Source: an uncultured Gammaproteobacteria bacterium | GTDB taxonomy: Bacteria > Pseudomonadota > Gammaproteobacteria > GCA-002705445 > GCA-002716945 | Direction: 5' to 3' | Assembly: GCA_902628335.1 (NCBI GenBank) | Contig: CACOMO010000002.1 | Location: 143,684-207,683 of the forward strand | Length of the DNA stretch: 64,000 nt | The notes under the pieces: generated by a model | Told to the model about the DNA's origin: nothing | Databases searched by the model: none | Seen by the model: the letters and a program-made list of their open reading frames with translations, nothing else | Shown: piece after piece, positions 50,535-64,000 of the stretch | Layout: each line of letters opens with the position of its first letter | Numbering within the stretch: position 1 is the stretch's first letter | Made by a program: the position numbers and the translations under genes

Positions 50535-50536
50535 AT

Positions 50537-51277
50537 TTAAATGTTAGAGTAAGTAACTCTTTGCTTCAATGAGAGATCAGCTCGAAGTCGTCTATTTTGC
50601 TTAGTTTTAAGAGCTTGGCTTACTCTGCTGTTAGGATCAGATAAATCACCAAAAGATATAGCTTTGTGACCCTCTTTCATGCATGCTTCCTCACATGCGG
50701 TAGTGGGAATACCATGATCAATTCTATTAACACAAAAATTACAACTTTCCACGCAACCTTTGCCCCTAGGTGCAGTTGTAACTTGTTCAGTTAAATTTTC
50801 GTGAACAAATGATCTAGCTTTAAATGGGCATGCCATCATACAGTAACGACAACCTATACATGTATGCTGATTTACCATAACTATACCATCAACTCTCCGA
50901 AATGAAGCACCAGTTGGGCAAACGTCACAGCATGGTGGATTCTCACAGTGCTGGCATAACATTGGCACAACTTTAACCTTATCTGTTTTGATATCCTTTA
51001 TTGTTAGTTTTCTTATCCATTGTGAGTCTGTCTCAGGTCTATCAAAACCATACAAACCATTCTCTTCTACGCACGCATCAACACATGCTGTACAACCTTT
51101 AGCGCACTTATCAACGTCTATACTCATCGCCCATTTTGTATCTGAGTTAACTTCCTCGTTAAGTGGTTTTGCAGCTTGCGCAGAGGTAATTATGTCAGGA
51201 ATAAAATATACAGTCGACAGTAGAGAAATCGATTTCACTATAAAACCTCTTCGACTAAGTTTAGTGTCAATAGTCAT
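50537..51277 (-). CDS. dsrO: DsrO (periplasmic 4x[4Fe-4S] ferredoxin-like subunit, Tat signal)
   Basis: Twin-arginine motif SRRGFIVKS. Multiple CxxCxxCxxxCP motifs. Confidence 0.85.
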   Translation of the reverse strand: MTIDTKLSRRGFIVKSISLLSTVYFIPDIITSAQAAKPLNEEVNSDTKWAMSIDVDKCAKGCTACVDACVEENGLYGFDRPETDSQWIRKLTIKDIKTDKVKVVPMLCQHCENPPCCDVCPTGASFRRVDGIVMVNQHTCIGCRYCMMACPFKARSFVHENLTEQVTTAPRGKGCVESCNFCVNRIDHGIPTTACEEACMKEGHKAISFGDLSDPNSRVSQALKTKQNRRLRADLSLKQRVTYSNI

Positions 51278-51750
51278 TTTGCACCTTCGACATAACTGAC
51301 TAATTTTTCAATCTCTTTTGATACATGGTCGTGTGAATGATTGTAATTAAGACTAATATGAGCTTCTGGTTTTCTTCCTCTAGGCACGGACGCGTGACAT
51401 GAAAAACAATCTATATTAACAGCTGTTTGAATATGGCATGTTTGACAAAATTGTCCCTCAGAATTTATTGGTATCGGCTCGCCAACTTCATCATATGAGA
51501 CATGACAATCAATACAATTTGCAAAACTGTGATTCTTTGTTCTTAAGCCATTAATTACTGTTTTGTCTCGTTGATGATATAGAAAAACAAAGTGTTCTTT
51601 CTGCATTATCTCAGTAGGTTCCACACACTGTGTTGCATCATCTGCTTTTGATTTGCCTTTGATTGAGTGGTTTATGCCATCATGACTGTATATGTCAGGA
51701 GAGATTAAGAAAATTATCAGTAACAGAAGCCTTATCGCTAATTGGTACAC
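51274..51750 (-). CDS. dsrJ: DsrJ (periplasmic triheme cytochrome c)
   Basis: Three CxxCH motifs, CIDCH, CQTCH and CFSCH, with a signal peptide. Confidence 0.85.
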   Translation of the reverse strand: MYQLAIRLLLLIIFLISPDIYSHDGINHSIKGKSKADDATQCVEPTEIMQKEHFVFLYHQRDKTVINGLRTKNHSFANCIDCHVSYDEVGEPIPINSEGQFCQTCHIQTAVNIDCFSCHASVPRGRKPEAHISLNYNHSHDHVSKEIEKLVSYVEGAK

Positions 51751-51785
51751 TTTCTCCCTCCCAGATTTCTACCAATTGTGGGTAG

Positions 51786-53759
51786 CTATTCTCCAAGACC
51801 CATTTTTATATAACCAGTTGGACACACATCTGCGCAAATGTGACATCCGATGCATTTGTTATAATCGGTATCGACATATCTACCAGTTGTTGATTGATCT
51901 TTTTTTACTCTAAATACAGCGTCTTGAGGACAATATATGACACAGTTATCACATTCGAAACACATACCACAACTCATACATCTGCCTGCTTCTTTAATTG
52001 CTTCTTCCTCAGTTAATCCAATAATTCGATCCTCATAATGATCTATGACGTCATCTCCTGTAGGTACTGCTTCACCACGCTTATATCTTGCTTCATGTTT
52101 ATAGTGACCCAGAAATAACTCTGTCGAAGGGATTACCTCCTGTCCAGATCTATCCTCATAATTATGAACCACAGCATTATTATTATCACTTCCTCTAAGT
52201 TTGTCTGGATCTTCAATTTTAGCCTGATAATCTTCAGGTGAGAGATCTGATTCTCTGAGTTTATCTAATAATTTGAAATGATGGACATCAACTTTAGGTC
52301 TTCTTTTAAAATCATCATTTTCAAAATAACTCTCAATCGTATCTGAAACTATTGAGCCTTGACCTATTGCTGTTGTTAATAAATGTGGTCTAATAATATC
52401 ACCTGCTACAAAATGACCTTCTTTTGTTTTATGTCTGTAGAAGTCGTCAACTTCAAAGAAGCCTTTTTCATTTCCCATTTCCTCATAACCTTCAATGTCA
52501 GGACTTTGCCCGATAGCAGAGATAATCAGGTCAGCCTCAATAACTTTTTCAGTTCCTTCAATAGGTTTTGGTACATTCTCTTCAAAGGTACAATCAGCAA
52601 CAACAAGAGCAATTGCTCTTCCATTCTCATCTTGCTCTACTTTTACAGGAATTACTCCATTTAATATTGATACACCTTCGTGCATCGCATCATTAACTTC
52701 TTGTTCAGCTGCGGTCATTTCCTCTCTCTTGAATAAGGAAGTTAGTGTTACCTCGGCACCCTCTTTGATGGCTTGCTCAGAAACATCTTGAGCAACATAC
52801 CCATGAACAACTGCTTCTGGTTTTTCTTGAGGGTTCATATTAGAGATATGGCCAAGTCTTCTTGCTACTGAGACCACATCAATAGATGTATCACCACCAC
52901 CAACGCAAACTACTTTTTGTGCACCTACTTTTAATCTACCTTGACTGAACGCTTCTAAGAATTCTACACCGTTCAAACAGTTTTCTGCATCACTCCCTTC
53001 AACTGGGAGCGATCTTCCATTCCAGCAGCCAATAGTCCACAGAACAGCATCATGAGATTTTTCAACATCTTCTAAAGGTACGTCTTTGCCAACTCTTGTA
53101 TTAAGTACTACTTCAATATCACCCAAGTCTAAGATACGTTTTATTTCTGCATCCAAGATATCTCTTGGTGTTCTATAATTAGGAATGCCGTAGCGCATCA
53201 TGCCACCAAGTTTTTCTCTCTCTTCAAAAATAGTGGATGCATAACCTTTCTTTCTTAACTGATATGCAGCAGACATGCCAGCTGGTCCACCTCCTATAAT
53301 TGCTACTCTCTGTTTTTTAAGTTCAGGCGCAGGGTCAAATTTAAATCCTTCTTTAAATGCTGTATCTCCGATGAACTGTTCTACTGCATTAATTCCAACA
53401 TAATCATCAACTTCGTTTCTGTTACAGCCACTTTGACATGGAGCGGGGCAAACTCTTCCCATTTGTGATGGAAAAGGGTTTGCAGTTGTTGATCGCCTGA
53501 AAGCATATTCAGACATTGTCATACCCTCTGGTGCTTTTTCTATACCTCTAACGATTTGTAACCAACCTCGTATATCTTCACCAGATGGGCAACTACCTTG
53601 GCAAGGTGGTGTTTTATGAATATATGTAGGACACTTATGGGATTTGTCTTGATTAAAGATATCCTCTGAAAAGTCTGTATACTTATGATCACCATCAGAG
53701 AATCGTCTATAGGTATTCTCCTCTTTCATCAAGTTGACTGTTTTTTCTAGCTTAGACAT
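51786..53759 (-). CDS. dsrL: DsrL (NAD(P)H:acceptor oxidoreductase, GltD-like with C-terminal ferredoxin domain)
   Basis: N-terminal Cys clusters, an FAD/NAD Rossmann motif IIGGGPAGMSAA, and a C-terminal 2x[4Fe-4S] domain CMSCGMCFECDNC...CIGCHICADVCP. Confidence 0.85.
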   Translation of the reverse strand: MSKLEKTVNLMKEENTYRRFSDGDHKYTDFSEDIFNQDKSHKCPTYIHKTPPCQGSCPSGEDIRGWLQIVRGIEKAPEGMTMSEYAFRRSTTANPFPSQMGRVCPAPCQSGCNRNEVDDYVGINAVEQFIGDTAFKEGFKFDPAPELKKQRVAIIGGGPAGMSAAYQLRKKGYASTIFEEREKLGGMMRYGIPNYRTPRDILDAEIKRILDLGDIEVVLNTRVGKDVPLEDVEKSHDAVLWTIGCWNGRSLPVEGSDAENCLNGVEFLEAFSQGRLKVGAQKVVCVGGGDTSIDVVSVARRLGHISNMNPQEKPEAVVHGYVAQDVSEQAIKEGAEVTLTSLFKREEMTAAEQEVNDAMHEGVSILNGVIPVKVEQDENGRAIALVVADCTFEENVPKPIEGTEKVIEADLIISAIGQSPDIEGYEEMGNEKGFFEVDDFYRHKTKEGHFVAGDIIRPHLLTTAIGQGSIVSDTIESYFENDDFKRRPKVDVHHFKLLDKLRESDLSPEDYQAKIEDPDKLRGSDNNNAVVHNYEDRSGQEVIPSTELFLGHYKHEARYKRGEAVPTGDDVIDHYEDRIIGLTEEEAIKEAGRCMSCGMCFECDNCVIYCPQDAVFRVKKDQSTTGRYVDTDYNKCIGCHICADVCPTGYIKMGLGE

Positions 53760-53830
53760 AAATCTCCCACCAAATATAAGTTTATTATTCTAATCTAATA
53801 TTCAATAATTATAGCACATGGATTCAGACC

Positions 53831-55330
53831 CTAAAGCTCTTTTTTGTTCATAATTAGAGCGTTTCCAACAAGCTGATGTAAGCTTATAATCTGGTCGATT
53901 TCAAACCCGTAGTATCCTAGAGCTTTCGAGAACTGTGACTTACAAATAGCACATATAGCAGCCATATGAGTGACACCATAGTCATCGACAACCCTCTTTA
54001 GTGCCTCCATTCTGGGGAGAGCACCTTTCATGCGTAATTCCATAAGATCATCTGTCAAGAGGCCTCCTCCGCCGCCGCAGCAGAAAGTTTTCTCTTTAAT
54101 TGTACTTTCGTCCATATCGTAAAAATGATTAGTAGTTGCCCTAATGATGTCTCGCGGAATTGTAAATTGCCCACCTATCACATCACCCATATTTGATGCT
54201 CTAGCCACATTACAGGAGTCATGATAAGTAACGACCATGTCATCGTTGGCAGACTTATCAAACTGTAAAACATTTTTCTGAATTAAGTCGTATGTTACTT
54301 CGCAAATGTGTTGAGGCACAGGATATTTAGGGTCTAGAAAATCAAAAGGTCCGGCAAGTGTGTTGAGAAAACTATATGCAACACGCCATGCGTGACCGCA
54401 CTCACCAAAGACAATCCTTTTCACATTTAAATCTAGTGCGGCTTCCCTAATCCTCATTGCAAGTTTACGCATGTTTGCATAACTTCCAATGAACATACCA
54501 AAATTAGCAGCTTCACTAGCATGAGAGCTCAAAGTCCAACTTAGGCCTGCTTGATGAAAGACCTTTCCATAACCAATTAAGCCATCTACGTGTGGTTCGG
54601 CAAAAAAATCTGCTGAGGGTGTAACTAGTAAAATATCAGAATCTTTCTGATCAAGTGGGTATTTTACATCAATATCAATCTCATCTTTGACATCCTCTTC
54701 AAGACCCTCGAGCGTATCAGCGAGGGCAGGTTCAGGTAGTCCTAAATTATTACCAATCTTATGAACTTTACCGATAATTTCATTACAATATTTTTGACCA
54801 ACGCCCACGGAATCCATAATTTCTCGTGCTGCCATTGATATTTCTGCAGTATCGATTCCCATAGGACAAAATACCGCACATCTCCTGCACTGTGAACACT
54901 GGTGGTAATAGGAATACCAATCATCTAAAACTTCTTTTGTTAAATCTACTGCTCCTACAAGTTTAGGGAAGTATTTACCAGGTAAAGTGAAGTATCTCCT
55001 ATAAACACTTCGAAGCAAGTTTTGCCTACCTACGGGCATGTTACTTGGATCTTTCGTTCCTAGATAATAATGGCATTTATCTGTGCAAGCACCACATTGA
55101 ATACACGAATCTAGGTAGACTCTTAGTGATCTATATTTTTTTAGCAGATCACCCATTTTGTCGAGGGCTGCATCTTGCCAGTTATCGACAAGTTCTCCCG
55201 GGTAACCAAGGGATGACTGGAATTCCTCTTTTGATTTAAAAGGTGCTAAATGTGCAGTTGCTTTTTTTTCAAGTAAAGGAACATCAGAGTATTCTTTAAG
55301 TTCAGGTTTTTCGAATTCTTTAACTGCCAT
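53831..55330 (-). CDS. dsrK: DsrK (HdrD-like catalytic subunit with CCG domains)
   Basis: Ferredoxin motifs CIQCGACTDKC and CSQCRRCAVFCP, plus CCG domains FCCGGGGG. Confidence 0.9.
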   Translation of the reverse strand: MAVKEFEKPELKEYSDVPLLEKKATAHLAPFKSKEEFQSSLGYPGELVDNWQDAALDKMGDLLKKYRSLRVYLDSCIQCGACTDKCHYYLGTKDPSNMPVGRQNLLRSVYRRYFTLPGKYFPKLVGAVDLTKEVLDDWYSYYHQCSQCRRCAVFCPMGIDTAEISMAAREIMDSVGVGQKYCNEIIGKVHKIGNNLGLPEPALADTLEGLEEDVKDEIDIDVKYPLDQKDSDILLVTPSADFFAEPHVDGLIGYGKVFHQAGLSWTLSSHASEAANFGMFIGSYANMRKLAMRIREAALDLNVKRIVFGECGHAWRVAYSFLNTLAGPFDFLDPKYPVPQHICEVTYDLIQKNVLQFDKSANDDMVVTYHDSCNVARASNMGDVIGGQFTIPRDIIRATTNHFYDMDESTIKEKTFCCGGGGGLLTDDLMELRMKGALPRMEALKRVVDDYGVTHMAAICAICKSQFSKALGYYGFEIDQIISLHQLVGNALIMNKKEL

Positions 55331-55339
55331 TTTATAATC

Positions 55340-56071
55340 CTATGATTCTAGTTTTCTAGCCCAATCTGCAATATGTCTTGAATCCCTTGCGGTATCAGTC
55401 TGATTTCTGGTAGGACTAAAGAATAATCCTGGGGCATGGAGCAATTTACTATAAGGAAAAATAATCATAAGAAGTAATACAAGTCCTAGGTGAAGTAATA
55501 GCATAAAATCGGATGGTAGCTCAGACCAATTAAAATATATCAAACCCAGTATAAACTGCTTCAATGCAAAAATATCTGTTGGGTACCATTTCATCAACAA
55601 TCCAGATAAGGCAATGCCGATAATTAAAAATAGAATTAAATAATCTGAGGGTGCTGAAATATGGCGAACTCTATCTACGAATATCCTTCTCACAAGTAAA
55701 CCAAGCAAGCCGAGCAACATCATATATGCCGCATAGTGACCAGCTGCTTGAACGATCTCCCATGATACCCAAAACCATACTGGATCAGTAGCATATCGGA
55801 GGTGTCTAAAAAATGCTAACAATAAAGCAAAGTGAAACAACCATCCAAACAACCATGTCCACTTAGCTGAATGAAATAGACTTTCAAAAAAAACTACTTC
55901 TCTGAATAGTCTCACTGCAACGCCACGTTTAGTCTTAGGTGCCGGTGGCGTTGGTATTTTTAGAGGAGCTGGAATAGTTGCATACTCATAAATTCTGTAT
56001 GCTATCCCTGCAAACAAAATCAAGGTTGCAAAATAAAACAACGATCCATATATAATTGTCACAAGTGACAT
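55340..56071 (-). CDS. dsrM: DsrM (NarI-like dihaem cytochrome b membrane subunit)
   Basis: Five-helix membrane protein with conserved His pairs. Precedes dsrK. Confidence 0.85.
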   Translation of the reverse strand: MSLVTIIYGSLFYFATLILFAGIAYRIYEYATIPAPLKIPTPPAPKTKRGVAVRLFREVVFFESLFHSAKWTWLFGWLFHFALLLAFFRHLRYATDPVWFWVSWEIVQAAGHYAAYMMLLGLLGLLVRRIFVDRVRHISAPSDYLILFLIIGIALSGLLMKWYPTDIFALKQFILGLIYFNWSELPSDFMLLLHLGLVLLLMIIFPYSKLLHAPGLFFSPTRNQTDTARDSRHIADWARKLES

Positions 56072-56103
56072 GCTCCTCTCCTCTCATAACCTTGCTAAGA
56101 ATA

Positions 56104-56436
56104 TTATACGCAACCAGTAGGCTTTGGTAATCCTGCAAACTTACAAGCTTGCTTACCAGGGCCATATGGGAAAAGTTCATAAAGGTATTTGCTGTTACCT
56201 TTTTCTTTTCCGAGTTTTTTACCGACTGCTTTGGTCAATACCCTAACCGCTGGAGCGATTTGATACTCTTCATAATATTCTCTTAGGAAATTAATAATTT
56301 CCCAGTGATCTTCGCCAAGATCAATGCCATCTTCTTTAGCCATTATCTCCGCGACATCTTTTTCCCAGTCGTTAAGGTTACTTAAGTAACCCTCTTCGTC
56401 TACTTCTAAGCTTTTACCATTTACTTCTATTGGCAT
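56104..56436 (-). CDS. dsrC: DsrC (sulfur-carrier / sulfite reductase substrate protein with CysA and CysB)
   Basis: C-terminal arm QACKFAGLPKPTGCV with two Cys spaced 10 residues apart. TusE/DsrC fold. Confidence 0.9.
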   Translation of the reverse strand: MPIEVNGKSLEVDEEGYLSNLNDWEKDVAEIMAKEDGIDLGEDHWEIINFLREYYEEYQIAPAVRVLTKAVGKKLGKEKGNSKYLYELFPYGPGKQACKFAGLPKPTGCV

Positions 56437-56450
56437 AGTCTACTCCTGAT

Positions 56451-56753
56451 TTATAGCCAGTTTTGAATTCTCTCATTCTCAACGGCAAGTTTAACAAAAT
56501 CTTGATAATCTATTATCTCTATATTATTGATTAGAGAGTTTTTATCAAGCCCTCTGGCCATTAAATCTGGCCCTAAGACGTACATTTTTACAGTATTAAG
56601 CGACTCTTTTACAGTTGCCTCAAACTTAGTGCCCTTTAGTGCACCATAAACACCATCCTCGATCAATAGAACGGAAGAATCTTTACCAGACAGTCTTAAA
56701 CATGTCTCAAGACTGTTTTTTTCAAAAGGTGATTTATTAACAGTGTGTAGCAT
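56451..56753 (-). CDS. dsrH: DsrH (DsrEFH sulfur-relay complex subunit)
   Basis: TusB/DsrH family; the N-terminal segment contains a conserved Cys. Confidence 0.8.
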   Translation of the reverse strand: MLHTVNKSPFEKNSLETCLRLSGKDSSVLLIEDGVYGALKGTKFEATVKESLNTVKMYVLGPDLMARGLDKNSLINNIEIIDYQDFVKLAVENERIQNWL

Positions 56754-57136
56754 TAGAAATTTAGAATTACCTCACTATCAGTAATTAATTGTTTCATTTC
56801 ATCTGATGAAATAATTTTGACGTCAACAGCAAGATCATCTGCAGATATTCCCCTTTCATCAAGTGACTCTTTTTCTACATATAATTTCTCAACATCATAC
56901 ATCTCAAGTGCAGAGAAAGTCTTTGTAAAATTTTTAGTACTAATCTGATCTGTATTCTGATCTTTTTTTAACTGAAAGACTCCGTCATCAAGAAATGCCA
57001 TGCTAACGTCTTGTTCGAAAGCAGCACCAATCAAGACAACTTCAAGAGCCTCGTGAGCATAAATTGTTCCATGAGGAGCACGTCTATTTATGTATAAAAA
57101 TTTTTTTATAACACCACTTTGAGCTTCTTCTTCCAT
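56753..57136 (-). CDS. dsrF: DsrF (DsrEFH subunit)
   Basis: TusC/DsrF family, translationally coupled. Confidence 0.8.
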   Translation of the reverse strand: MEEEAQSGVIKKFLYINRRAPHGTIYAHEALEVVLIGAAFEQDVSMAFLDDGVFQLKKDQNTDQISTKNFTKTFSALEMYDVEKLYVEKESLDERGISADDLAVDVKIISSDEMKQLITDSEVILNF

Positions 57137-57529
57137 CTAGTCACCAAAAGTAATTAATCTATCTGCTTGAATACCGGCCTCTATTAGCTGTCCTAAGCCT
57201 GATATTCTAAAATTATCTGCAATGTTATCTGCATCTTTTTTATTTCTTTTCATTTCGTCAGGATCGACCATACCTCTACGTTGAGCTGCTGCTACGCATA
57301 ACACTAAATCTAAATTATGTTCTTTAGCAAGTTCGGACCACCTGTTAGGGATATGACGATCATCTTGTGGAGGAGTAGCTAGACGTGTGCCGTTGTTTAC
57401 ACCATCATGATAGAAGAATATCCGATAAATCTCATGTCCTTGATCTATTGCGGCTTTTGCAAATAAATAAGCACTATCTGAAGCTTGGTGTGTGTAAGGT
57501 CCCTCGTTTACAAGAATTCCAAATTTCAT
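57137..57529 (-). CDS. dsrE: DsrE (DsrEFH subunit with active-site Cys)
   Basis: TusD/DsrE family; the conserved Cys lies in LVLCVAAAQRRG. Confidence 0.85.
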   Translation of the reverse strand: MKFGILVNEGPYTHQASDSAYLFAKAAIDQGHEIYRIFFYHDGVNNGTRLATPPQDDRHIPNRWSELAKEHNLDLVLCVAAAQRRGMVDPDEMKRNKKDADNIADNFRISGLGQLIEAGIQADRLITFGD

Positions 57530-57540
57530 AATATCTAGTA

Positions 57541-58626
57541 TTAAAATCTAACGTATGCAGATGAGTTGAGGGTTTTTCGACCGCCACGCCAATTATCAAT
57601 ATGGAACTTAGTAAATGGTAGCTCTGTTAATTCGAAGAATCTTGGCCAACCAATTCTCTCAATCCAGTCATTTATTCTTTCCCAATCCTTTGCGTCTTCT
57701 TTGTAAACTTTTAGAATACGTTTAACGATTGCGGTAGCCTCTGGCCATCTTGGAGGATTATTAGGTATACCCGCGGCTACTAGTTTTTGGAATGTAGGTT
57801 TGCCTCTAGCATTAGAATGATTTCCGCCTACCCATATAGCAAGTTTACTGTGTTCAGGGTCATTGATTTGCATTGGAGGACATGGAGGGAAGCAGGCTCC
57901 ACAGCAAATACATTTTTTTTCATCGACTTCTAAAGATGCTTTACCGTTAACCATTGCCGGTCTTATTGCTGCCACAGGACAACGTGCCACAACAGATGGT
58001 CTCTCGCAAACATTTGATACAAGATCATGGTTAATTTTAGGTGGTTTAGTATGTTGTATATTGATTGCAATATCACCTTGTCCACCACAATTAATTTGAC
58101 AACACGATGTAGTCATGTGGACTCTATTTGGCATCTCATTACCTTTAAATTCGTCAATTAATTCATCCATCATTGCTTTTACAACACCAGATGCGTCAGT
58201 TCCAGGGATATCACAGTGTAGCCAACCTTGTGTGTGCGAGATCATAGCAACGCTATTTTTTGTCCCACCAACTATAAACCCGTTCTTTTCTAATTCTTCT
58301 ATTAAAGGTTCTACTTTACTCCCATCTTTAACCATATACTCAATGTTACTTCTAATTGTAAACCTGACGTAACCATCAGCATATTTATCACCAATGTCAC
58401 ATAATGTCCTTAATGTGAAAACGTCAAGTATACGTTGGGTCCCGGCTCTAACTGTCCATATCTCTTCACCACTTTTTGCAACATGTTTAAGAACTCCAGG
58501 TTTTGGGTGCTCATGATACTGCCATTGACCATAGTTCTTACGCATAGTTGGATGCATATATTGAAAACCATCAGGTGCTCCTGTTTCAATCGGAGCTCTC
58601 ATCTCTTTTTTTTGTTCTTCACTCAT
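57541..58626 (-). CDS. dsrB: dissimilatory sulfite reductase beta subunit (reverse-type)
   Basis: Sirohaem/[4Fe-4S] Cys motifs and a ferredoxin insert CxxCxxC. Collinear with DsrB. Confidence 0.95.
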   Translation of the reverse strand: MSEEQKKEMRAPIETGAPDGFQYMHPTMRKNYGQWQYHEHPKPGVLKHVAKSGEEIWTVRAGTQRILDVFTLRTLCDIGDKYADGYVRFTIRSNIEYMVKDGSKVEPLIEELEKNGFIVGGTKNSVAMISHTQGWLHCDIPGTDASGVVKAMMDELIDEFKGNEMPNRVHMTTSCCQINCGGQGDIAINIQHTKPPKINHDLVSNVCERPSVVARCPVAAIRPAMVNGKASLEVDEKKCICCGACFPPCPPMQINDPEHSKLAIWVGGNHSNARGKPTFQKLVAAGIPNNPPRWPEATAIVKRILKVYKEDAKDWERINDWIERIGWPRFFELTELPFTKFHIDNWRGGRKTLNSSAYVRF

Positions 58627-58629
58627 AAT

Positions 58630-59883
58630 TTATGCAGACTCTTTTTTAGCATCAGCTTTTTCGTACCACTTTACTGCTTCGTCATCCCATTCATCTGTCC
58701 TTACATAAGAACTCTCTCTTGGGTTAGCAACCATGTTAGGGTCAACGTCAACTCCGATACCCTCTAAGAAATTGACAAGACCGATTCTTTCAATCATCTC
58801 ACCACATCTTTCATGTTCAAGTGCATTATCTGCCCAAAAATCAATGGACTCTTCGGCAATCTCGACGAGACGTTCCCAGTCTTCATCAGTTTCTAGCTTC
58901 ATAAACGGAACGATTACAGTTCCCATCAAATCACCAATTTTTAGGGTTCTCTTCCCACCTATCAGAATTGTAACACCCTTATCATCCCCAGGATGGAGTG
59001 CTTTTGGCACAACGTTGAGACAGTGCATACATTTCACACAGTTTTGATTATCAATCGCCACAGTGTCATCATCATTCAACGAAATTGCATTTGTAGGGCA
59101 TCTTGTAACGATATTATCAATCACATATTTTCTACCTTTCAATGCTACATATTTTTTAAATTCTTCTTGGTCAATTTGAATGTCATCTCTCCAAGTACCT
59201 ATCACTGACATATCCGCTCTTTCGATTGAGTTCATACAGTCATTTGCACAACCAGATATTTTAAATTTAAATTTGTATGGTAAGGCTGGACGATGCATAT
59301 CATCCATGAAGTTATTTACCAACAAACGCATAGCTTTCTGCTCATTCAAATTAGACATCTCGCAACGACCAGCGCCTACACAAGCCATAGCCGTCCTCAC
59401 ACATGGCCCAGCACCACCCAGATCAAATCCATAATCATTAATTTCATCAAAAAAGTGCTGCGTGTTCTCGGTAGACGAACCTATAAACATAATGTTTCCG
59501 GTTTGCCCATGAAAAGTCACCAGTCCAGATCCGTATTTTTCCCAACTGTCTGCTAATTGACGAAGGATATCAGTTGTATAAAAATTACCTGCAGGTGGTT
59601 GGACTCTTAGGGTATGAAATTCTTTTGATTTAGGGAAAGCATCACCAACTTCAGAAAAGCGAGGTATTATTCCTCCACCATATCCATAGACACTTACTGT
59701 GCCACCTTTCCAATAGCCTTTGCGTGTCTCATAGGAGTGCTCTAATTGACCAAGTAGGTCATTAGTCATCTCATTAATTCTCTCTTCTGGATGATTGTCT
59801 CTTAAGCGCTTTATCCCACTAATAAAACTAGGCCAAGGGCCGTTCTCCAGCTCATCAATCATCGGGGTGTCGTGTTTTTTCAA
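58630..59883 (-). CDS. dsrA: dissimilatory sulfite reductase alpha subunit (reverse-type); TTG start
   Basis: Collinear DsrA homology: GGGIIPRFSE..; Cys motifs CVRTAMACVGAGRCEMS and CANDCMNS. Start codon TTG at 59881-59883, with SD AGGGAGA 6 nt upstream. Confidence 0.95.
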   Translation of the reverse strand: MKKHDTPMIDELENGPWPSFISGIKRLRDNHPEERINEMTNDLLGQLEHSYETRKGYWKGGTVSVYGYGGGIIPRFSEVGDAFPKSKEFHTLRVQPPAGNFYTTDILRQLADSWEKYGSGLVTFHGQTGNIMFIGSSTENTQHFFDEINDYGFDLGGAGPCVRTAMACVGAGRCEMSNLNEQKAMRLLVNNFMDDMHRPALPYKFKFKISGCANDCMNSIERADMSVIGTWRDDIQIDQEEFKKYVALKGRKYVIDNIVTRCPTNAISLNDDDTVAIDNQNCVKCMHCLNVVPKALHPGDDKGVTILIGGKRTLKIGDLMGTVIVPFMKLETDEDWERLVEIAEESIDFWADNALEHERCGEMIERIGLVNFLEGIGVDVDPNMVANPRESSYVRTDEWDDEAVKWYEKADAKKESA

Positions 59884-60048
59884 TCGTTTCTCCCTGTAAA
59901 CCCTTTAAATACTGCTACCCTGCAGATTAGCTATATTGAATCCATCCAATATCTTTATTATATTATCATTATTTTCTAATATAATGCTTGGATAATCAAT
60001 ATAACATTGATATTAATTGTATTACAAGCTAAAAAAAACCATAATTTT

Positions 60049-60897
60049 ATGAATATATTGAATGTAAAAAGTGATGATTATAGGCGTTGGAGAGACCGTA
60101 AATTAGCTTGTTTCACATCGGATATGAGTAAACTGATGGTGGAGATAAAAAATCCCCTAAAATTGACATCATCAGAGATCAAGTTATCAGCAAAGATCAT
60201 AAATCAGAGCAATTTACTATTTTTTGAATTGGGGCATTATAAGGGCGACATCAGATCATCCCTAGTGATACTTGCAAAACAGTTCGGTATGGGGCAATTC
60301 GAAATATTAGAGTCAAGTGAAAAGAGTGGATTGACAAAGATAGAGGTATCCTCTTTATCTAAAGCAAAAAGTGAATATATTCCTTATACAAACAAATCAT
60401 TAAATTGGCATACTGACGGTTATTACAACGAGGTTAACGATCCGATTTTGTCATGGTTACTATTTTGTAAATCTAATTCCAGTAATGGAGGCGACAATAA
60501 ATTTATGGACCATGAGATTGCTTATATTCTATTTAATGACCACTCGGCAGATATCGGAGATTTAATGGATAGTGAGGCATTTACCATACCTGAGAATACT
60601 CAAAATGGTAGGAAGGCTGTGAGCAGTTACGTATTTAGATTGTTAGACAACAAGTTACATATGAAGTTTAGCATGAGAGAGAAAAATATAATCTGGAGAA
60701 ATAAAATTAAATCATCGGTAGAATTACTTAAAACGATTATTAAAGAAAATGAATACTATCAAATAAAGTATAAGTTGAAACCTAACCAAGGCGTTATCTC
60801 TAATAATGTTATTCATATGAGGTCATCATTTACAAATACGTCTAATAAGAATAGGCTGTTATATAGGTTGCGATCTAAAAGAAGAATAGATATCTGA
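60049..60897 (+). CDS. TauD/TfdA-family Fe(II)/2-oxoglutarate dioxygenase
   Basis: Facial-triad motif NWHTDGYYN, matching TauD NWHTDVTF. NGGDNKFMD matches GGDTLW. C-terminal VIHMRSS...R matches RIMHRAT. Divergent from dsrA across a 165-bp AT-rich region. The ORF track start 60007 is possible; ATG 60049 is preferred. Confidence 0.7.
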   Translation: MNILNVKSDDYRRWRDRKLACFTSDMSKLMVEIKNPLKLTSSEIKLSAKIINQSNLLFFELGHYKGDIRSSLVILAKQFGMGQFEILESSEKSGLTKIEVSSLSKAKSEYIPYTNKSLNWHTDGYYNEVNDPILSWLLFCKSNSSNGGDNKFMDHEIAYILFNDHSADIGDLMDSEAFTIPENTQNGRKAVSSYVFRLLDNKLHMKFSMREKNIIWRNKIKSSVELLKTIIKENEYYQIKYKLKPNQGVISNNVIHMRSSFTNTSNKNRLLYRLRSKRRIDI

Positions 60898-61088
60898 TGT
60901 TATATTTAAGTACGCTGTTGATACAAGAGAAAGATGTAGAGAGTTTCGAAGAACTATTAGAGGTAATTAAAATGAGAGCTAAATCTGGAGAGCGTTTCAT
61001 CCGACTTGATCTCAAGCCTCCATACCCTGATACACCTAAAGATTGGGAAGAGAGAGTTGAATCTGCATTTACAGGATACATTGAGTGA
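60897..61088 (+). CDS. small hypothetical protein (63 aa), translationally coupled in the TauD-like operon
   Basis: ATCTGATG and GTGATG overlaps with the genes on either side. No motif recognised. Confidence 0.35.
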   Translation: MLYLSTLLIQEKDVESFEELLEVIKMRAKSGERFIRLDLKPPYPDTPKDWEERVESAFTGYIE

Positions 61089-61765
61089 TGTGGATTGAAG
61101 AAGAAGAAAAACAATCAATCTCAGAGATGTCAAAGATGGTAGATGTGGCGTTTAAGATAAATTGTAAAACTCTGCCATATGATCATGCCTTCTCACTATC
61201 AAATGAAATACTTAAACACCTACCTTGGTTAGAAGACAATAAATTGACAGGCATACAAACACTTCATGGGCCAGAATCAGGCAATGGTTGGACAAGGTCG
61301 GAGAATGAAGAAATTTTTTTATCGAAAAGGACCAGGCTTATCCTAAGGATTCCAAAGTCGGAATACGATAAAGCTTGTGAACTTGAGGGCGAAACACTCA
61401 AGGTGCTTGGAAATGATATTAGAATCGGTAAAGCAAATAAAAAGCCATTTCTCACTGTAAGAGATTTAATATGTAGATTTGTGCTAACAAACGAAGATCT
61501 GGATGAAAGTGAGTTTCTTAAATATGTTGCTGAAGAGTTTAAAAATCATGAAATTCATCTTCGCAAAGCCATATGTGGAAAAACAAAATCATTTACAATA
61601 AACGGTGATCAAAAATTTACAAGAAGCCTTATGATTGCTGATTTATCTAAAGAAAATTCTATCAAGCTTCAGGATGTCGGAGTTGGTATAGGCAGAATTT
61701 TTGGCTGTGGGATTTTCCTGCCTCATAAATCAATTGATGCAGTTGCAAATTTCAAAGAAGATTGA
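61088..61765 (+). CDS. hypothetical protein with C-terminal Cas6/RAMP-like glycine-rich loop (GVGIGRIFGCG)
   Basis: About 225 aa. Near the C-terminus, GhG-xxxxx-GhG appears as GVG IGRIF GCG, the pattern of Cas6 G-rich loops. No CRISPR array or cas genes are in the window, so homology is unproven. Confidence 0.4.
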   Translation: MWIEEEEKQSISEMSKMVDVAFKINCKTLPYDHAFSLSNEILKHLPWLEDNKLTGIQTLHGPESGNGWTRSENEEIFLSKRTRLILRIPKSEYDKACELEGETLKVLGNDIRIGKANKKPFLTVRDLICRFVLTNEDLDESEFLKYVAEEFKNHEIHLRKAICGKTKSFTINGDQKFTRSLMIADLSKENSIKLQDVGVGIGRIFGCGIFLPHKSIDAVANFKED

Positions 61766-61851
61766 GTAATCTCTGTAGACATATTTATCGCAGTATATTA
61801 GAATTTTCCAATATAGTAATTATTGATATAGTATAAAAGTGGAGTGATACT

Positions 61852-62190
61852 ATGAAAGTTGAAGTAGACGGAAAAGAGATCCCAACAACAGATACTGGTT
61901 TTTTGACAAACTTAGAGGACTGGTCTGAAGATGTTGCAAAAGTTATTGCTGAACAAGAGGGCATACAACTGGCTGAGAGGCATTGGGATGTAATAAATTA
62001 TCTTAGAGATGAGTTTATTAACAACAAGGAAAATCAACCAAACACCAGAAACATGGTCAAGGACTTAGGTAAACTCTGGGGAGAGAAAATTGACACTAAA
62101 ACGCTTTTTGATTTATTCCCTGGAAATCCAAGCAAACAAGCCGGAAGAATTGGCGGTTTGCCAGAGAGTAGACGAAAAGGCGGATATTAA
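61852..62190 (+). CDS. DsrC/TusE-family paralogue lacking both C-terminal cysteines
   Basis: Collinear with the window's own DsrC (MKVEVDGKEI..ERHWDVINYLRDEF..LFDLFPGNPSKQAG). The C-terminal arm reads RIGGLPESRRKGGY, with Gly where DsrC has CysB and CysA. Confidence 0.8.
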   Translation: MKVEVDGKEIPTTDTGFLTNLEDWSEDVAKVIAEQEGIQLAERHWDVINYLRDEFINNKENQPNTRNMVKDLGKLWGEKIDTKTLFDLFPGNPSKQAGRIGGLPESRRKGGY

Positions 62191-62519
62191 TGTCAGAAGA
62201 TAAAGTCAGTCAGAATGACACAAAGGCAGAAGATACCAATCAGGATAATAATGAATCTCCTGAAGAAAATAATGAATCTCCAGAAGTAGAGAAAAAACCT
62301 GATAAAAAAGCTCTAGAAAAAGAAAGGAAAGAAATTATTACTAAAATGCTAAGAATTCAGAAAGAATTCATGGAGTTAGAGAGAGAAAAAGGTGTCACAG
62401 AAAAAGATATTCATCATAACCCTCAAGGAATTGTTAAAGAGTACAAAGAAGAGCATGAGAAACTTGCTAATAGACTAGTTGATATCGCACATGCATTAAA
62501 AGGGTCTATAAGAACATAA
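62190..62519 (+). CDS. acidic low-complexity protein with tandem NNESPEE/NNESPEV repeat
   Basis: TAATG overlap with the DsrC-like gene. Asp/Glu/Lys-rich. Contains a 24-nt near-duplicate tandem repeat. Confidence 0.4.
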   Translation: MSEDKVSQNDTKAEDTNQDNNESPEENNESPEVEKKPDKKALEKERKEIITKMLRIQKEFMELEREKGVTEKDIHHNPQGIVKEYKEEHEKLANRLVDIAHALKGSIRT

Positions 62520-62713
62520 TGAATAAAGAATATTTTGATTTAGTCACAAAACTGGAAGATATGGGTGTCTCAGATGATTATTTACTTGGTTGGCAAGAGG
62601 GCTACATGAGATCACCAAAACTGGAAGAGCAGAGAGTTACTGATGCGTATGATGCTGGTTATGAAGACGGTGAGAATAAAGTTACAGATAACGCGGAGAA
62701 ATTTAAAAAATAA
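62519..62713 (+). CDS. small acidic hypothetical protein (64 aa)
   Basis: TAATG overlap with the preceding gene. No motif recognised. Confidence 0.35.
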   Translation: MNKEYFDLVTKLEDMGVSDDYLLGWQEGYMRSPKLEEQRVTDAYDAGYEDGENKVTDNAEKFKK

Positions 62714-63274
62714 TTATTTCGTTAAAGAAGTGTAAACTTCTACGAACTTTTTACAAATCTCAACCGCATCAATATCAACAATCTGATCCATTACCCATTT
62801 GTTAGTTTGACTAGAGCCCATAGCATCCTGAATTTTTTTTGCTAAGTGTCTATAAATAGAATAATTGGTCTCTCCTGGGCTGAAATCAAAGTCCGAGTAT
62901 TCAGAAGATCTGAGGTTTAGCGTTTTAATATACCCTGTTCTATAATCCCCAGCTCCAAATAGGTCCTCGCAATTCTCTTGCATCGTTCTTGCTGAATGAC
63001 TCCCTATTTTATTCATTACCTCTATCCTAAAATCCTCGGGGTGGTCATCTCTAAATAACAGTCTGTCAGCTATATGAACTTGAAATGACATAAATTCAAC
63101 AATGACACTCACTCTTTGATGATCAGATGTGTACTCAAAATCCTCTCCGTGCAAGTTTTTAGCTTTGTCTAAAGATAACCTCCACCCAATATACGACATT
63201 GCACTTGCAAAATCCTCACTTGTTTTTTCTCGTTTAACGGTTTTGGACCATTTACTCTTAATTCTTATAACCAT
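62714..63274 (-). CDS. hypothetical protein (186 aa)
   Basis: Long ORF with no recognised motifs. Convergent with the preceding operon. Confidence 0.4.
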   Translation of the reverse strand: MVIRIKSKWSKTVKREKTSEDFASAMSYIGWRLSLDKAKNLHGEDFEYTSDHQRVSVIVEFMSFQVHIADRLLFRDDHPEDFRIEVMNKIGSHSARTMQENCEDLFGAGDYRTGYIKTLNLRSSEYSDFDFSPGETNYSIYRHLAKKIQDAMGSSQTNKWVMDQIVDIDAVEICKKFVEVYTSLTK

Positions 63275-63329
63275 TTTAAAAATTTAATCTTTATATATAA
63301 TGACTATATTATATAAGATATGAGTAAAT

Positions 63330-63926
63330 ATGGATATTAAAATAGATAAACGTCTGATTGAAGTAAGTTCGGGAAGCTTTATTTTCGAATTTACTCATTC
63401 CCTTGATAGCACTATTTGTACTGATATTATCAAGCGTTTTGAAGACTCTACAGAAGATCATTATCGAGGTCGTGTCGGGCAAAATTTTATTGAGAACACA
63501 GATGTTAAAAAATCGACAGATATGGTCATTAGCGGAAAAGACGCGTGGAAAGATGTTGATGAGTTATTATTTAGAAGTCTGTCGAAAGCACTCTCCAGTG
63601 TTAAAAAAGAATATGATTTTTTTAATGGGCCTTTTAAAGATATAGGTTATGCTGTTCAACGAACAGAGCCTGGAGAATATTTTAATTGGCACATTGACAG
63701 CGGTAGTCACCAATTTAGTGATAGGCAACTGGTTGCAATTTGGTATCTTAATGACGTAGAGGGGCCAGGTGGTGAGACAGAGTTTATTCATCAAAATGTT
63801 AAGGTTAAACCTGAGAAAGGAAAACTGATTCTCTTTCCACCATTTTGGACTCATGAGCATCGTGGTGTTAAACTTCAAAAAGGAGTTAAGTACATAGCAA
63901 CAACATGGATAGTATTTAAAACATGA
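63330..63926 (+). CDS. 2OG-Fe(II) oxygenase, prolyl-4-hydroxylase-like
   Basis: HxD...H triad with WHIDSG and WTHEHRG. A double-stranded beta-helix of about 200 aa. Confidence 0.65.
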   Translation: MDIKIDKRLIEVSSGSFIFEFTHSLDSTICTDIIKRFEDSTEDHYRGRVGQNFIENTDVKKSTDMVISGKDAWKDVDELLFRSLSKALSSVKKEYDFFNGPFKDIGYAVQRTEPGEYFNWHIDSGSHQFSDRQLVAIWYLNDVEGPGGETEFIHQNVKVKPEKGKLILFPPFWTHEHRGVKLQKGVKYIATTWIVFKT

Positions 63927-64000
63927 TTAAAGAAATAAAAAATTTGTCCTCTGAAGAGCTCATGAAATCTGTAATCCAAAGGGTAGCAACTGGTCCAGAG

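What the first reader, a model, noticed from the sequence alone, without database searches (positions are those of the whole stretch)
60049..61765. Divergent three-gene operon (TauD/TfdA-like dioxygenase, 63-aa protein, 226-aa G-rich-loop protein) sharing a promoter region with dsrA
Three ORFs overlap by ATCTGATG and GTGATG, a sign of translational coupling. They are transcribed divergently from dsrA across a 165-bp AT-rich spacer, so they are likely co-regulated with sulfur oxidation. The first shows the TauD motifs NWHTDGYYN, GGDN and VIHMR..R. TauD-type enzymes release sulfite from sulfonates, and sulfite is the product of rDsr, so an organosulfonate link to the dsr pathway is one hypothesis. 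The O2 dependence also hints at an oxic or suboxic niche. The other two proteins have no assignable function. The combination appears uncharacterised.
Basis: partly seen in the sequence, partly recalled or inferred. Interest (0 to 1): 0.65.

Follow-up and report, generated by a model that had tools for sequence, protein, structure and literature searches.

The report
CRISPR-less Cas6 operon beside dsrAB
Next to the sulfur-oxidation genes dsrAB sits a widely conserved three-gene operon: a known oxygenase of unknown function (DsrQ), a 63-residue protein, and a homolog of the CRISPR RNA-cutting enzyme Cas6 that has no CRISPR system around it and probably acts on some other RNA.

Summary
Three tightly packed ORFs (60049-61765, + strand) diverge from dsrA across a 165-bp spacer of 25% GC.

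The interpretation needs correcting on two points.
1. The TauD-like gene is not new. It matches "dsrQ", a tauD-like gene already reported divergent from dsrA, whose function is unknown. The sulfonate idea has already been published as speculation. My profile search puts it nearest TmpA and gamma-butyrobetaine hydroxylase, and finds no TauD, AtsK or TfdA.
2. The "226-aa G-rich-loop protein" is a Cas6/Cmx6-family protein. It scores 180 bits on PF09559 and exceeds the TIGR02807 cut-off. Its model has pLDDT 91 and TM 0.74-0.78 to the Cas6 of a type I-B Cascade. It keeps the G-rich loop, plus a His and two Arg that are invariant in CRISPR-linked Cmx6. No CRISPR array or cas gene lies nearby in the window or in 91 related loci.

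The order dsrA <-> dsrQ-s63-Cas6-like, followed by a cysteine-less DsrC-like gene, recurs across sulfur-oxidising Gammaproteobacteria (at least 585 species matches), including cultured Thiothrix nivea.

Best reading: this is a dsr accessory module whose Cas6 homolog binds or processes a non-CRISPR RNA. That mechanism is inferred and no RNA target was found.

Overall, this is a new variant of a known kind, and moderately to highly interesting.

The parts
58630..59883 (-). dsrA (417 aa), first gene of the dsrABEFHC-MKL... cluster on the minus strand. It is the divergent neighbour of the operon.
   Evidence: ORF list. Homologous loci carry NIR_SIR Pfam families in the same position. 71-98% identical DsrA in 59 related-locus ORFs.
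59884..60048 (.). 165-bp AT-rich divergent intergenic region (25.5% GC), presumably holding the promoters for dsrA and for the three-gene operon.
   Evidence: Only weak sigma-70-like matches, no more than in shuffled sequence. The conserved operator-like element found in non-SUP05 relatives is not detectable here.
60049..60897 (+). DsrQ-type TauD/TfdA-superfamily Fe(II)/2-oxoglutarate oxygenase, 282 aa.
   Evidence: PF02668 36.4 bits against a cut-off of 27. H121-x-D123...H256 plus R258/R269/R273/R275 are invariant in 15 family members. Nearest solved relatives are TmpA and BBOX. The literature name dsrQ is given in PMC7596348.
60897..61088 (+). Conserved 63-aa protein ('s63') with no cysteines, predicted to form three helices. 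Motif: MLxLS...F..L....RA..GE.FFR.DvKPPxPDTPxDWEDRLEaAF.
   Evidence: No Pfam, NCBIfam or PADLOC match. 87 homolog clusters, always in the same position. Present in 59 of 63 loci. AF2 pLDDT 71 with three helices. No fold match.
61085..61765 (+). Solo Cas6/Cmx6-family RAMP protein, 226 aa (alternative ATG start at 61088 gives 225 aa). G-rich loop G199-V-G201-IGRIF-G207-C-G209.
   Evidence: PF09559 180 bits, E=6e-53. TIGR02807 112.9 bits against a cut-off of 98.85. PADLOC Cas6 profiles up to 196 bits. AF2 pLDDT 91. Foldseek 8fcj_B TM 0.74/0.78, followed by other Cas6/Cse3 structures. Shares invariant H34, R88, R131 and the G-rich loop with CRISPR-linked Cmx6.
61852..62190 (+). Cysteine-less DsrC/TusE-family (RspA-type) protein, 112 aa, with the invariant C-terminus ...GLPESRRKGGY. 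It is a constant downstream partner and probably has its own promoter (86-bp gap).
   Evidence: PF04358 and TIGR03342. Present in 71 of 78 loci. C-terminal RKGGY in all 73 sequences; both DsrC cysteines are absent. Promoter-like site TAGACA-17-TAGAAT at 61776-61804.
62190..63926 (.). Further conserved neighbourhood: p109 (62190-62519, +), Alvin_2107-family protein (62519-62713, +), p186 (62714-63274, -) and a P4H-like 2OG-Fe(II) oxygenase (63330-63926, +).
   Evidence: These recur in the related loci.

Best explanation
The three ORFs form a conserved accessory operon of the oxidative dsr (reverse dissimilatory sulfite reductase) system in sulfur-oxidising Gammaproteobacteria.

Gene 1 is DsrQ. 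It is an apparently active Fe(II)/2-oxoglutarate oxygenase from a distinct clade of the TauD/TfdA superfamily. Its substrate is unknown and probably not a sulfonate.

Gene 2 is a 63-residue helical protein. It is most likely an adaptor or partner subunit of one of its neighbours.

Gene 3 is a Cas6/Cmx6-family protein working outside any CRISPR system. It keeps the double-RRM fold, the canonical G-rich RNA-binding loop, and the His/Arg residues it shares with genuine crRNA-processing Cmx6. The most likely mechanism is therefore that it binds, and perhaps cleaves, a specific non-CRISPR RNA, giving RNA-level control or RNA-dependent assembly tied to dsr function. It probably works with the cysteine-less DsrC-like protein encoded just downstream.

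Shown: gene identities, fold, retained motifs, absence of CRISPR/cas, operon architecture, and conserved linkage to dsrAB.

Inferred: RNA binding or cleavage, the identity of the RNA, partnership with s63 and the DsrC-like protein, and any regulatory outcome.
For: Family and fold:
- PF09559 at E=6e-53, TIGR02807 above its cut-off, and Cas6 PADLOC profiles.
- AF2 pLDDT 91 and Foldseek hits only to Cas6/Cse3 structures, with TM 0.74-0.78 to 8fcj_B.
- Profile E=3e-26 to that crRNA-bound Cas6.

Retained functional residues:
- H34, R88, R131, F144 and G199/G201/G207/G209 are invariant both in the dsr-linked family and in CRISPR-linked Cmx6 from cyanobacterial plasmids. There the gene is followed by cas3-cas8-cas7-cas5.

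Non-CRISPR context:
- No CRISPR-like array in the window or in 91 loci totalling 1.18 Mb.
- The neighbours are dsr genes, not cas genes.

Conservation:
- At least 585 species-level matches in GTDB genomes and 757 50%-identity clusters.
- dsrA is adjacent in 55 of 63 loci, s63 in 59 of 63, and the DsrC-like gene in 71 of 78.
- Gene gaps of 3 and 15.5 nt (medians) support co-translation.
- The same layout occurs in cultured Thiothrix nivea DSM 5205.

DsrQ:
- The active site is intact.
- The gene is named and noted as of unknown function in the literature.
Against: - No RNA target was found. There is no Rfam hit and no shared hairpin in the Cas6-like/DsrC-like intergenic regions.
- The one conserved palindrome in the dsrA/dsrQ spacer of non-SUP05 relatives behaves like a DNA operator. 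Its half-sites vary independently, with 22 pairs that are G-U on the + strand against 14 that are G-U only on the - strand. It is also absent from this window.
- The family has clade-specific features whose meaning is unknown and which could reflect a non-RNA function: an N-terminal MxWxE motif, an SGNGWxRP insertion, and a C-terminal PHKxI motif.
- The assignment of H34 as catalytic rests on its position and on recall of other Cas6 enzymes, not on a test.
- No expression or genetic data were accessible.
Confidence: 0.45

Rival explanations
1. Organosulfonate link. The TauD-like enzyme oxygenolytically releases sulfite from taurine, isethionate or alkylsulfonates. The sulfite then feeds the sulfite-oxidising branch downstream of rDsr. 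The other two proteins would be accessory.
For: - Pfam TauD family membership and an intact HxD...H/Arg site.
- Conserved adjacency to dsrA.
- Absence from the anaerobic Halochromatium loci fits an O2-dependent enzyme.
- The idea is cited in PMC7596348.
Against: - The family profile finds TmpA, gamma-butyrobetaine dioxygenase, DfmD, FrbJ and glutarate hydroxylase among solved structures. It finds no TauD, AtsK or TfdA even at E<=10.
- NCBIfam hits are only to TmpA, BBOX and TMLH, all far below their cut-offs.
- No sulfonate transporter or aldehyde-handling gene is part of the conserved neighbourhood.
- The idea does not explain the obligatory Cas6-like, s63 and DsrC-like partners.
Confidence: 0.15
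2. Protein-modification or O2-sensing module with no RNA role. DsrQ, and elsewhere the neighbouring P4H/PiuC-like oxygenases, hydroxylates a protein. The obvious candidate is the flexible C-terminal arm (...GLPESRRKGGY) of the cysteine-less DsrC-like protein. That protein then modulates rDsrAB or dsr transcription according to O2. The Cas6-like protein and s63 would serve only as protein scaffolds, the RRM fold having been repurposed.
For: - The DsrC-like partner is present in 71 of 78 loci and has an invariant, cysteine-free C-terminus RKGGY.
- Up to three different 2OG-Fe(II) oxygenases recur in the neighbourhood.
- DsrQ's nearest relatives act on lysine-derived or trimethylammonium substrates.
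- The TauD-like gene is missing from the anaerobic phototroph loci.
- The Cas6-like family has unique conserved insertions.
Against: - Purely inferential. There is no fusion, modification data or precedent for TauD-family enzymes acting on DsrC-like proteins.
- The RNA-contacting G-rich loop and the shared His/Arg residues of Cas6 remain under strict conservation. That would be unexpected if RNA binding had been lost.
Confidence: 0.2
3. The Cas6 homolog is an ordinary CRISPR component that processes crRNA in trans from an array elsewhere in the genome. Its position next to dsr would be incidental.
For: It passes the curated NCBIfam equivalog threshold for type I-MYXAN Cas6/Cmx6, and annotation pipelines name it that way.
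Against: - The same non-cas neighbours recur in essentially all of roughly 80 species-level loci. None has cas genes or arrays within +/-8 kb.
- Identity to CRISPR-linked Cmx6 is only 25-29%.
- The top 150 50%-identity cluster representatives share the clade-specific sequence motifs; their genomic context was not examined.
- True Cmx6 genes sit directly upstream of cas3-cas8-cas7-cas5.
- From general knowledge, not tested here: streamlined SUP05 genomes commonly lack CRISPR-Cas.
Confidence: 0.03

Closest known systems
Cas6/Cmx6 (type I-MYXAN, I-D and I-B Cas6; for example the Cas6 of the type I-B CAST Cascade, PDB 8fcj_B, and plasmid-borne cyanobacterial Cmx6)
   Same: - Same Pfam and NCBIfam family.
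- Same double-RRM fold, TM 0.74-0.78.
- Same GhGxxxxxGhG loop.
- Shared invariant His and two Arg.
   Different: - No CRISPR array and no cas3/5/7/8/1/2 nearby. It is embedded in a dsr sulfur-oxidation neighbourhood instead.
- Only 25-29% identity.
- Extra N-terminal MxWxE segment, a roughly 10-residue SGNGWxRP insertion, and a C-terminal PHKxI motif.
- Always preceded by a conserved 63-aa protein.
DsrQ (tauD-like gene divergent from dsrA; named by Lenk et al. 2012 as summarised in Loeffler et al. 2020, PMC7596348)
   Same: A TauD/TfdA-family gene immediately upstream of dsrA and transcribed in the opposite direction, found in aerobic or facultatively aerobic sulfur oxidisers. This matches the window and 52 of 63 related loci.
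   Different: In the accessible text, DsrQ is described as a single gene of unknown function. The coupled 63-aa and Cas6-like genes are not mentioned there. I could not read Lenk et al. directly.
E. coli TauD and P. putida AtsK (sulfonate and sulfate-ester dioxygenases)
   Same: Same superfamily (PF02668) and the same HxD...H Fe(II) triad plus a 2OG-binding Arg.
   Different: The family profile does not retrieve them from the PDB even at E<=10. TmpA, BBOX and DfmD are retrieved instead. Substrate specificity is therefore not transferable.
[quoted passage not shown]
   Same: DsrC fold family (PF04358, TIGR03342) without the two C-terminal cysteines. This is the definition of the RspA group cited in PMC8477390.
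   Different: It carries a sharply conserved alternative C-terminus, AGLPESRRKGGY. It is genetically tied to the Cas6-like operon, which I did not find described.

Membership tests
Cas6 (RAMP crRNA endoribonuclease), Cmx6 subgroup | Sequence-profile membership above curated thresholds | tested here: met
   PF09559 180.1 bits (cut-off 26.7). TIGR02807 112.9 bits (cut-off 98.85). PADLOC Cas6 profiles 72-196 bits.
Cas6 (RAMP crRNA endoribonuclease), Cmx6 subgroup | Two tandem ferredoxin-like/RRM domains | tested here: met
   AF2 model pLDDT 91.2 with beta-alpha-beta-beta-alpha-beta x2 topology. Foldseek top 36 hits are all Cas6/Cse3 structures, best TM 0.74/0.78.
Cas6 (RAMP crRNA endoribonuclease), Cmx6 subgroup | C-terminal glycine-rich loop GhGxxxxxGhG | tested here: met
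   G199-V-G201-IGRIF-G207-C-G209. G207 and G209 are invariant and G199 and G201 at least 90% conserved across 44 family members. All four are invariant in the 13-sequence alignment that includes CRISPR-linked Cmx6.
Cas6 (RAMP crRNA endoribonuclease), Cmx6 subgroup | Conserved His at the beta/alpha1 junction (the usual general-base position) | tested here: inconclusive
   H34 is invariant in alignment A5, including two CRISPR-linked Cmx6, and lies at the start of helix 35-45. It is replaced by Asn in 8fcj_B. A catalytic role is inferred from memory of other Cas6 enzymes, not tested.
Cas6 (RAMP crRNA endoribonuclease), Cmx6 subgroup | Genomic association with a CRISPR array and other cas genes | tested here: not met
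   No array in the window or in 91 related loci. Neighbours are dsr genes. Compare cas3-cas8-cas7-cas5 next to true Cmx6.
Cas6 (RAMP crRNA endoribonuclease), Cmx6 subgroup | Sequence- or structure-specific RNA binding and cleavage | not testable with these tools
   No candidate RNA found. Biochemistry is needed.
TauD/TfdA Fe(II)/2OG dioxygenase superfamily | Profile membership and the HxD/E...H facial triad with a 2OG-binding Arg | tested here: met
   PF02668 36.4 bits (cut-off 27). H121, D123, H256, R258, R269, R273 and R275 are invariant.
Taurine/sulfonate dioxygenase (TauD sensu stricto) | Closest characterised relatives are sulfonate or sulfate-ester dioxygenases | tested here: not met
   Profile against PDB gives TmpA 3e-7, BBOX 2e-5, DfmD 2e-5. 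TauD, AtsK and TfdA are absent at E<=10. NCBIfam gives only weak TmpA, BBOX and TMLH hits.
DsrQ (literature name) | tauD-like gene directly upstream of dsrA and divergently transcribed | tested here: met
   Window: 165-bp divergent spacer. 52 of 63 related loci. Definition taken from PMC7596348.
DsrC sensu stricto (for the downstream 112-aa partner) | Two conserved redox-active cysteines in the C-terminal arm | tested here: not met
   The window protein has no Cys at all. Its C-terminus is ...GLPESRRKGGY. All 73 homologs end in RKGGY. This makes it RspA-type.

The most novel reading that the evidence does not exclude
A Cas6 ribonuclease lineage has been recruited, or never belonged to CRISPR, as a core accessory of dissimilatory sulfur oxidation. 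Together with the 63-aa protein and the cysteine-less DsrC-like protein, it would form an RNA-binding complex that processes or controls dsr-regulon transcripts, or another RNA linked to sulfur relay. DsrQ would supply O2-dependent input. This would be the first housekeeping or metabolic role for a Cas6-family protein outside CRISPR immunity and CRISPR-derived systems.
Probability: 0.35. Interest if true: 0.85.

Novelty: new variant of a known kind. Interest (0 to 1): 0.66.

Why it matters
Cas6 is known almost exclusively as the crRNA-maturation nuclease of CRISPR systems. Here a large family of Cas6 homologs (at least 585 species, 757 50%-identity clusters) sits in the most conserved position next to dsrAB. 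These proteins are strictly CRISPR-free and are conserved from SUP05 to Thiothrix and Halochromatium.

For CRISPR biology, this would be a clear case of a Cas protein working in core energy metabolism.

For sulfur microbiology, it gives concrete and testable candidates (Cas6-like, s63, RspA-type DsrC, DsrQ) for the poorly understood regulation and accessory functions of the rDsr pathway. That pathway drives sulfide detoxification in oxygen-minimum zones and in chemosynthetic symbioses.

There is also a practical consequence. Annotation pipelines label these genes 'type I-MYXAN CRISPR-associated Cas6/Cmx6', which will produce false CRISPR calls in sulfur oxidisers.

Tried and rejected
1. CRISPR array or repeated hairpins. 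TRF, direct-repeat search and an exact 20-mer array scan over the window and 91 loci found nothing.
2. Known RNA families. Rfam E-value mode on window 50000-64000 and gathering mode on 9 loci gave no hits.
3. A shared hairpin between the Cas6-like and DsrC-like genes. Folding of 60 intergenic regions showed no common structure.
4. The conserved 80-nt element with the CTATCCC-N4-GGGATAG palindrome in the dsrA/dsrQ spacer as a Cas6 substrate. I rejected it as an RNA hairpin. Half-site changes are independent (CG compensatory 3 observed against 2.6 expected) and G-U asymmetry is weak (22 against 14). It is also absent from the window.
5. The extra 234-239-aa protein found between s63 and Cas6-like in 16 loci as a second RAMP. 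hhalign probability 0.1%, and no family hit.
6. s63 as a DsrC fragment (one NCBI record names a homolog 'sulfur relay protein DsrC'). hhalign found no relation to either DsrC family, so this looks like a misannotation.
7. s63 fused to DsrQ or to Cas6-like. No fusions were found.
8. Viral carriage. No relatives in IMG/VR.
9. Fold search for s63. No match with E<1.
10. Literature. Searches for Cas6+TauD, Cas6+dsr, Cmx6, I-MYXAN and Alvin_2107 found nothing on a dsr-linked Cas6. Lenk et al. 2012 is not held.
11. Expression data from the Ca. Thiosymbion oneisti supplements. The only TauD hit there is a different locus.
Full report
**1. Observation**

The three ORFs exist as described:
- a 282-aa ORF at 60049-60897;
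- a 63-aa ORF at 60897-61088;
- a 226-aa ORF at 61085-61765. It has a GTG start, and an ATG at 61088 gives the 225-aa length used in database homologs.

The junction sequences are ATCTGATG and GTGATG, so stop and start codons overlap. dsrA (58630-59883, minus strand) is divergent across 165 bp of 25.5% GC, in a window of 34.7% GC. Downstream of dsrA on the minus strand lie dsrB, E, F, H, C, M, K, L and further genes.

**2. What the proteins are**

*Gene 1.* It passes the Pfam TauD/TfdA threshold only modestly (36.4 bits, cut-off 27).
- Aligned with 14 orthologs from other loci, it has invariant H121-x-D123, H256, R258, R269, R273 and R275. It also has a family-specific YIPYxxxxLxWHxDGYYN block (the residue after the His is Thr in 14 of 15 sequences). 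It therefore looks like an active Fe(II)/2OG oxygenase.
- The family profile retrieves these solved structures: TmpA (3e-7), gamma-butyrobetaine dioxygenase (2e-5) and DfmD (2e-5), then weak FrbJ, glutarate hydroxylase and CarC.
- It retrieves no TauD, AtsK or TfdA even at E<=10.

*Gene 2.* It has no match in Pfam, NCBIfam or PADLOC.
- It is nevertheless highly conserved, with 20 invariant positions in 30 sequences.
- It is predicted to form three helices at pLDDT 71, and no fold match was found.

*Gene 3.* This is the surprise: it is a Cas6/Cmx6 protein.
- PF09559 at E=6e-53, TIGR02807 112.9 bits against a cut-off of 98.85, and Cas6 profiles in PADLOC up to 196 bits.
- A 44-sequence alignment gave an AF2 model of pLDDT 91.2.
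- The best PDB matches of that model are the Cas6 subunit of a type I-B CAST Cascade (8fcj_B/8fcu_B, TM 0.74-0.79), followed by Pyrococcus and Thermus Cas6 and Cse3.
- The family profile matches the 8fcj_B sequence at E=3e-26.

**3. Is it a CRISPR component?**

No CRISPR-like array exists in the 64-kb window.

I fetched 80 species-level loci from GTDB genomes. At least 585 stretches encode a relative, and the listed organisms are sulfur oxidisers: SUP05, Thiothrix, Thiolinea, Cocleimonas, Thiomargarita, Halochromatium, Thiohalobacter, Thiogranum, Sulfuricaulis and Acidiferrobacterales. I added 11 metagenomic loci. None of the 91 loci contains an array, and the flanking genes are not cas genes.

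By contrast, the nearest plasmid-borne relatives are 25-29% identical and come from cyanobacteria. They sit directly upstream of cas3-cas8-cas7-cas5(-cas4/1-cas2).

Aligning the two groups shows what is shared and what is not.
- Shared invariants: H34, L38, G68, R88, G102, R131, F144 and the G-rich loop G199/G201/G207/G209.
- Specific to the dsr-linked clade: an N-terminal MxWxE extension, an SGNGWxRP insertion, TRSLMxADL, and a C-terminal PHKxI.

The top 150 50%-identity cluster representatives share these clade-specific motifs.

**4. Conserved context**

Among loci with complete flanks:
- dsrA lies upstream and divergent in 55 of 63;
- the TauD-like gene is present in 52 of 63;
- s63 is present in 59 of 63;
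- the cysteine-less DsrC-like gene is present in 71 of 78.

Median gaps are 3 nt (TauD->s63), 15.5 nt (s63->Cas6-like), 85.5 nt (Cas6-like->DsrC-like) and 471 nt (dsrA<->TauD). The three-gene operon structure is therefore conserved, and the DsrC-like gene probably has its own promoter. In the window, a TAGACA-17-TAGAAT site lies at 61776-61804.

Further recurrent neighbours are p109, an Alvin_2107-family protein, p186, a P4H-like and (elsewhere) a PiuC-like 2OG oxygenase, a Sfum_1244/DUF6866 protein and p196.

Sixteen loci insert a 234-239-aa protein of unknown family between s63 and Cas6-like.

The three Halochromatium loci lack the TauD-like gene but keep s63-p238-Cas6-like-DsrC-like.

The cultured strain Thiothrix nivea DSM 5205 has the full arrangement.

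**5. Literature**

Loeffler et al. 2020 (PMC7596348) state the following:
- Lenk et al. 2012 termed the tauD-like gene upstream of and divergent from dsrA 'dsrQ'.
- It was speculated to release sulfite from sulfonates.

Another paper lists DsrQ as 'unknown function'. I found no paper mentioning a Cas6 homolog or the 63-aa gene in this context. The original Lenk paper is not held, so I cannot exclude that its figures show these ORFs as hypothetical genes.

**6. Search for an RNA target**

- No Rfam family was found.
- The Cas6-like/DsrC-like spacers share no hairpin.
- Masking the known proteins revealed only further protein-coding conservation.

In 44 of 56 non-SUP05 loci, the dsrA/dsrQ spacer holds a conserved ~80-nt element: AGTCTAGG...GAAnA-CCCTACCCWTGGGGTG...CTATCCC-N4-GGGATAG. 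The palindrome is almost unique to this spacer, with 51 of 57 matches in 1.07 Mb lying there.

Its half-sites vary independently and show no clear strand-specific G-U bias. RNAalifold support is marginal. I read it as a DNA operator of the dsr regulon, not as the Cas6 substrate. It is absent from the compact AT-rich spacer of the window.

**7. Mechanism**

Shown:
- a conserved, co-translated DsrQ-s63-Cas6-like operon welded to dsrAB;
- a Cas6 fold that retains the RNA-binding loop and the shared His/Arg residues;
- no CRISPR context;
- an intact oxygenase site in DsrQ, whose nearest characterised relatives do not act on sulfonates;
- a constant partner that is a DsrC-fold protein with an invariant cysteine-free RKGGY tail.

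Inferred as the best explanation (confidence about 0.45): the Cas6 homolog is a specific RNA-binding or RNA-processing protein acting on a non-CRISPR transcript connected with dsr function. s63 would be its, or DsrQ's, small partner.

Rivals:
- an O2-dependent protein-hydroxylation or sensing module targeting the DsrC-like tail, with Cas6-like acting as a protein scaffold (0.2);
- the published sulfonate-desulfonation idea (0.15);
- an ordinary CRISPR Cas6 acting in trans (0.03).

**8. Verdict**

The finding is real and conserved. One part of it, DsrQ and the sulfonate idea, is already in the literature.

I rate it a new variant of a known kind, with interest 0.66.

Noticed in passing
Related loci, e.g. 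L049 6480-6560, L066, L031, L052 (dsrA<->dsrQ/s63 spacer); absent from window 59884-60048: A conserved ~80-nt element about 100-280 nt upstream of dsrA, found in 44 of 56 non-SUP05 loci: AGTCTAGG-N20-GAAnA-CCCTACCCWTGGGGTG-N17-CTATCCC-N4-GGGATAG. The terminal 7+7 palindrome is almost unique to this spacer (51 of 57 matches in 1.07 Mb). It also occurs 83 nt from Alvin_2107-family genes in L064 and L067. It behaves like a DNA operator of a dsr regulon. The regulator is unknown.
   Followed up: partly
window 61852-62190 (+): A DsrC/TusE-family protein with no cysteine at all and the C-terminus ...GLPESRRKGGY. All 73 homologs from the related loci end in RKGGY. The usual redox-active arm has therefore been replaced by another strictly conserved tail of unknown function. 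Databases name it TusE or 'tRNA 2-thiouridine synthesizing protein E', which is unlikely to be correct without the cysteine.
   Followed up: partly
window 62190-62519 (+), repeat at 62247-62286: p109 is a conserved small acidic protein that is 74-77 aa in other SUP05-like loci. Here it is lengthened by a 21-nt tandem duplication encoding NNESPEE-type low-complexity sequence (TRF score 73).
   Followed up: no
window 62519-62713 (+), 62714-63274 (-), 63330-63926 (+): An Alvin_2107-family 'globule sulfur oxidation' protein (NF049856, 93.5 bits), a conserved 186-aa protein with no family, and a P4H-like 2OG-Fe(II) oxygenase (PF13640). All recur with the operon in other genera. Other genomes add a PiuC-like 2OG oxygenase and a Sfum_1244/DUF6866 protein, so up to three different 2OG oxygenases accompany dsr.
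   Followed up: partly
L006 8192-8908, L010 724-1428, L052 7185-7991 and 13 other loci: A 234-268-aa protein with no detectable family is inserted between s63 and the Cas6-like gene in 16 loci, including all three Halochromatium loci. It is not a diverged RAMP by hhalign (probability 0.1%). It is absent from the window.
   Followed up: partly
P0158 (63-aa homolog of window 60897-61088), NCBI MBK47087.1: One GenBank record names the 63-aa protein 'sulfur relay protein DsrC'. Profile comparison shows no relation to DsrC or to the DsrC-like family, so this is probably an annotation transfer error.
   Followed up: yes
L065, L072, L082, L090: In four loci s63 is genuinely absent. In three of them (L065, L072, L090) the TauD-like gene abuts the Cas6-like gene directly. 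L082 has neither s63 nor the TauD-like gene. s63 is therefore not strictly essential to the pairing.
   Followed up: yes
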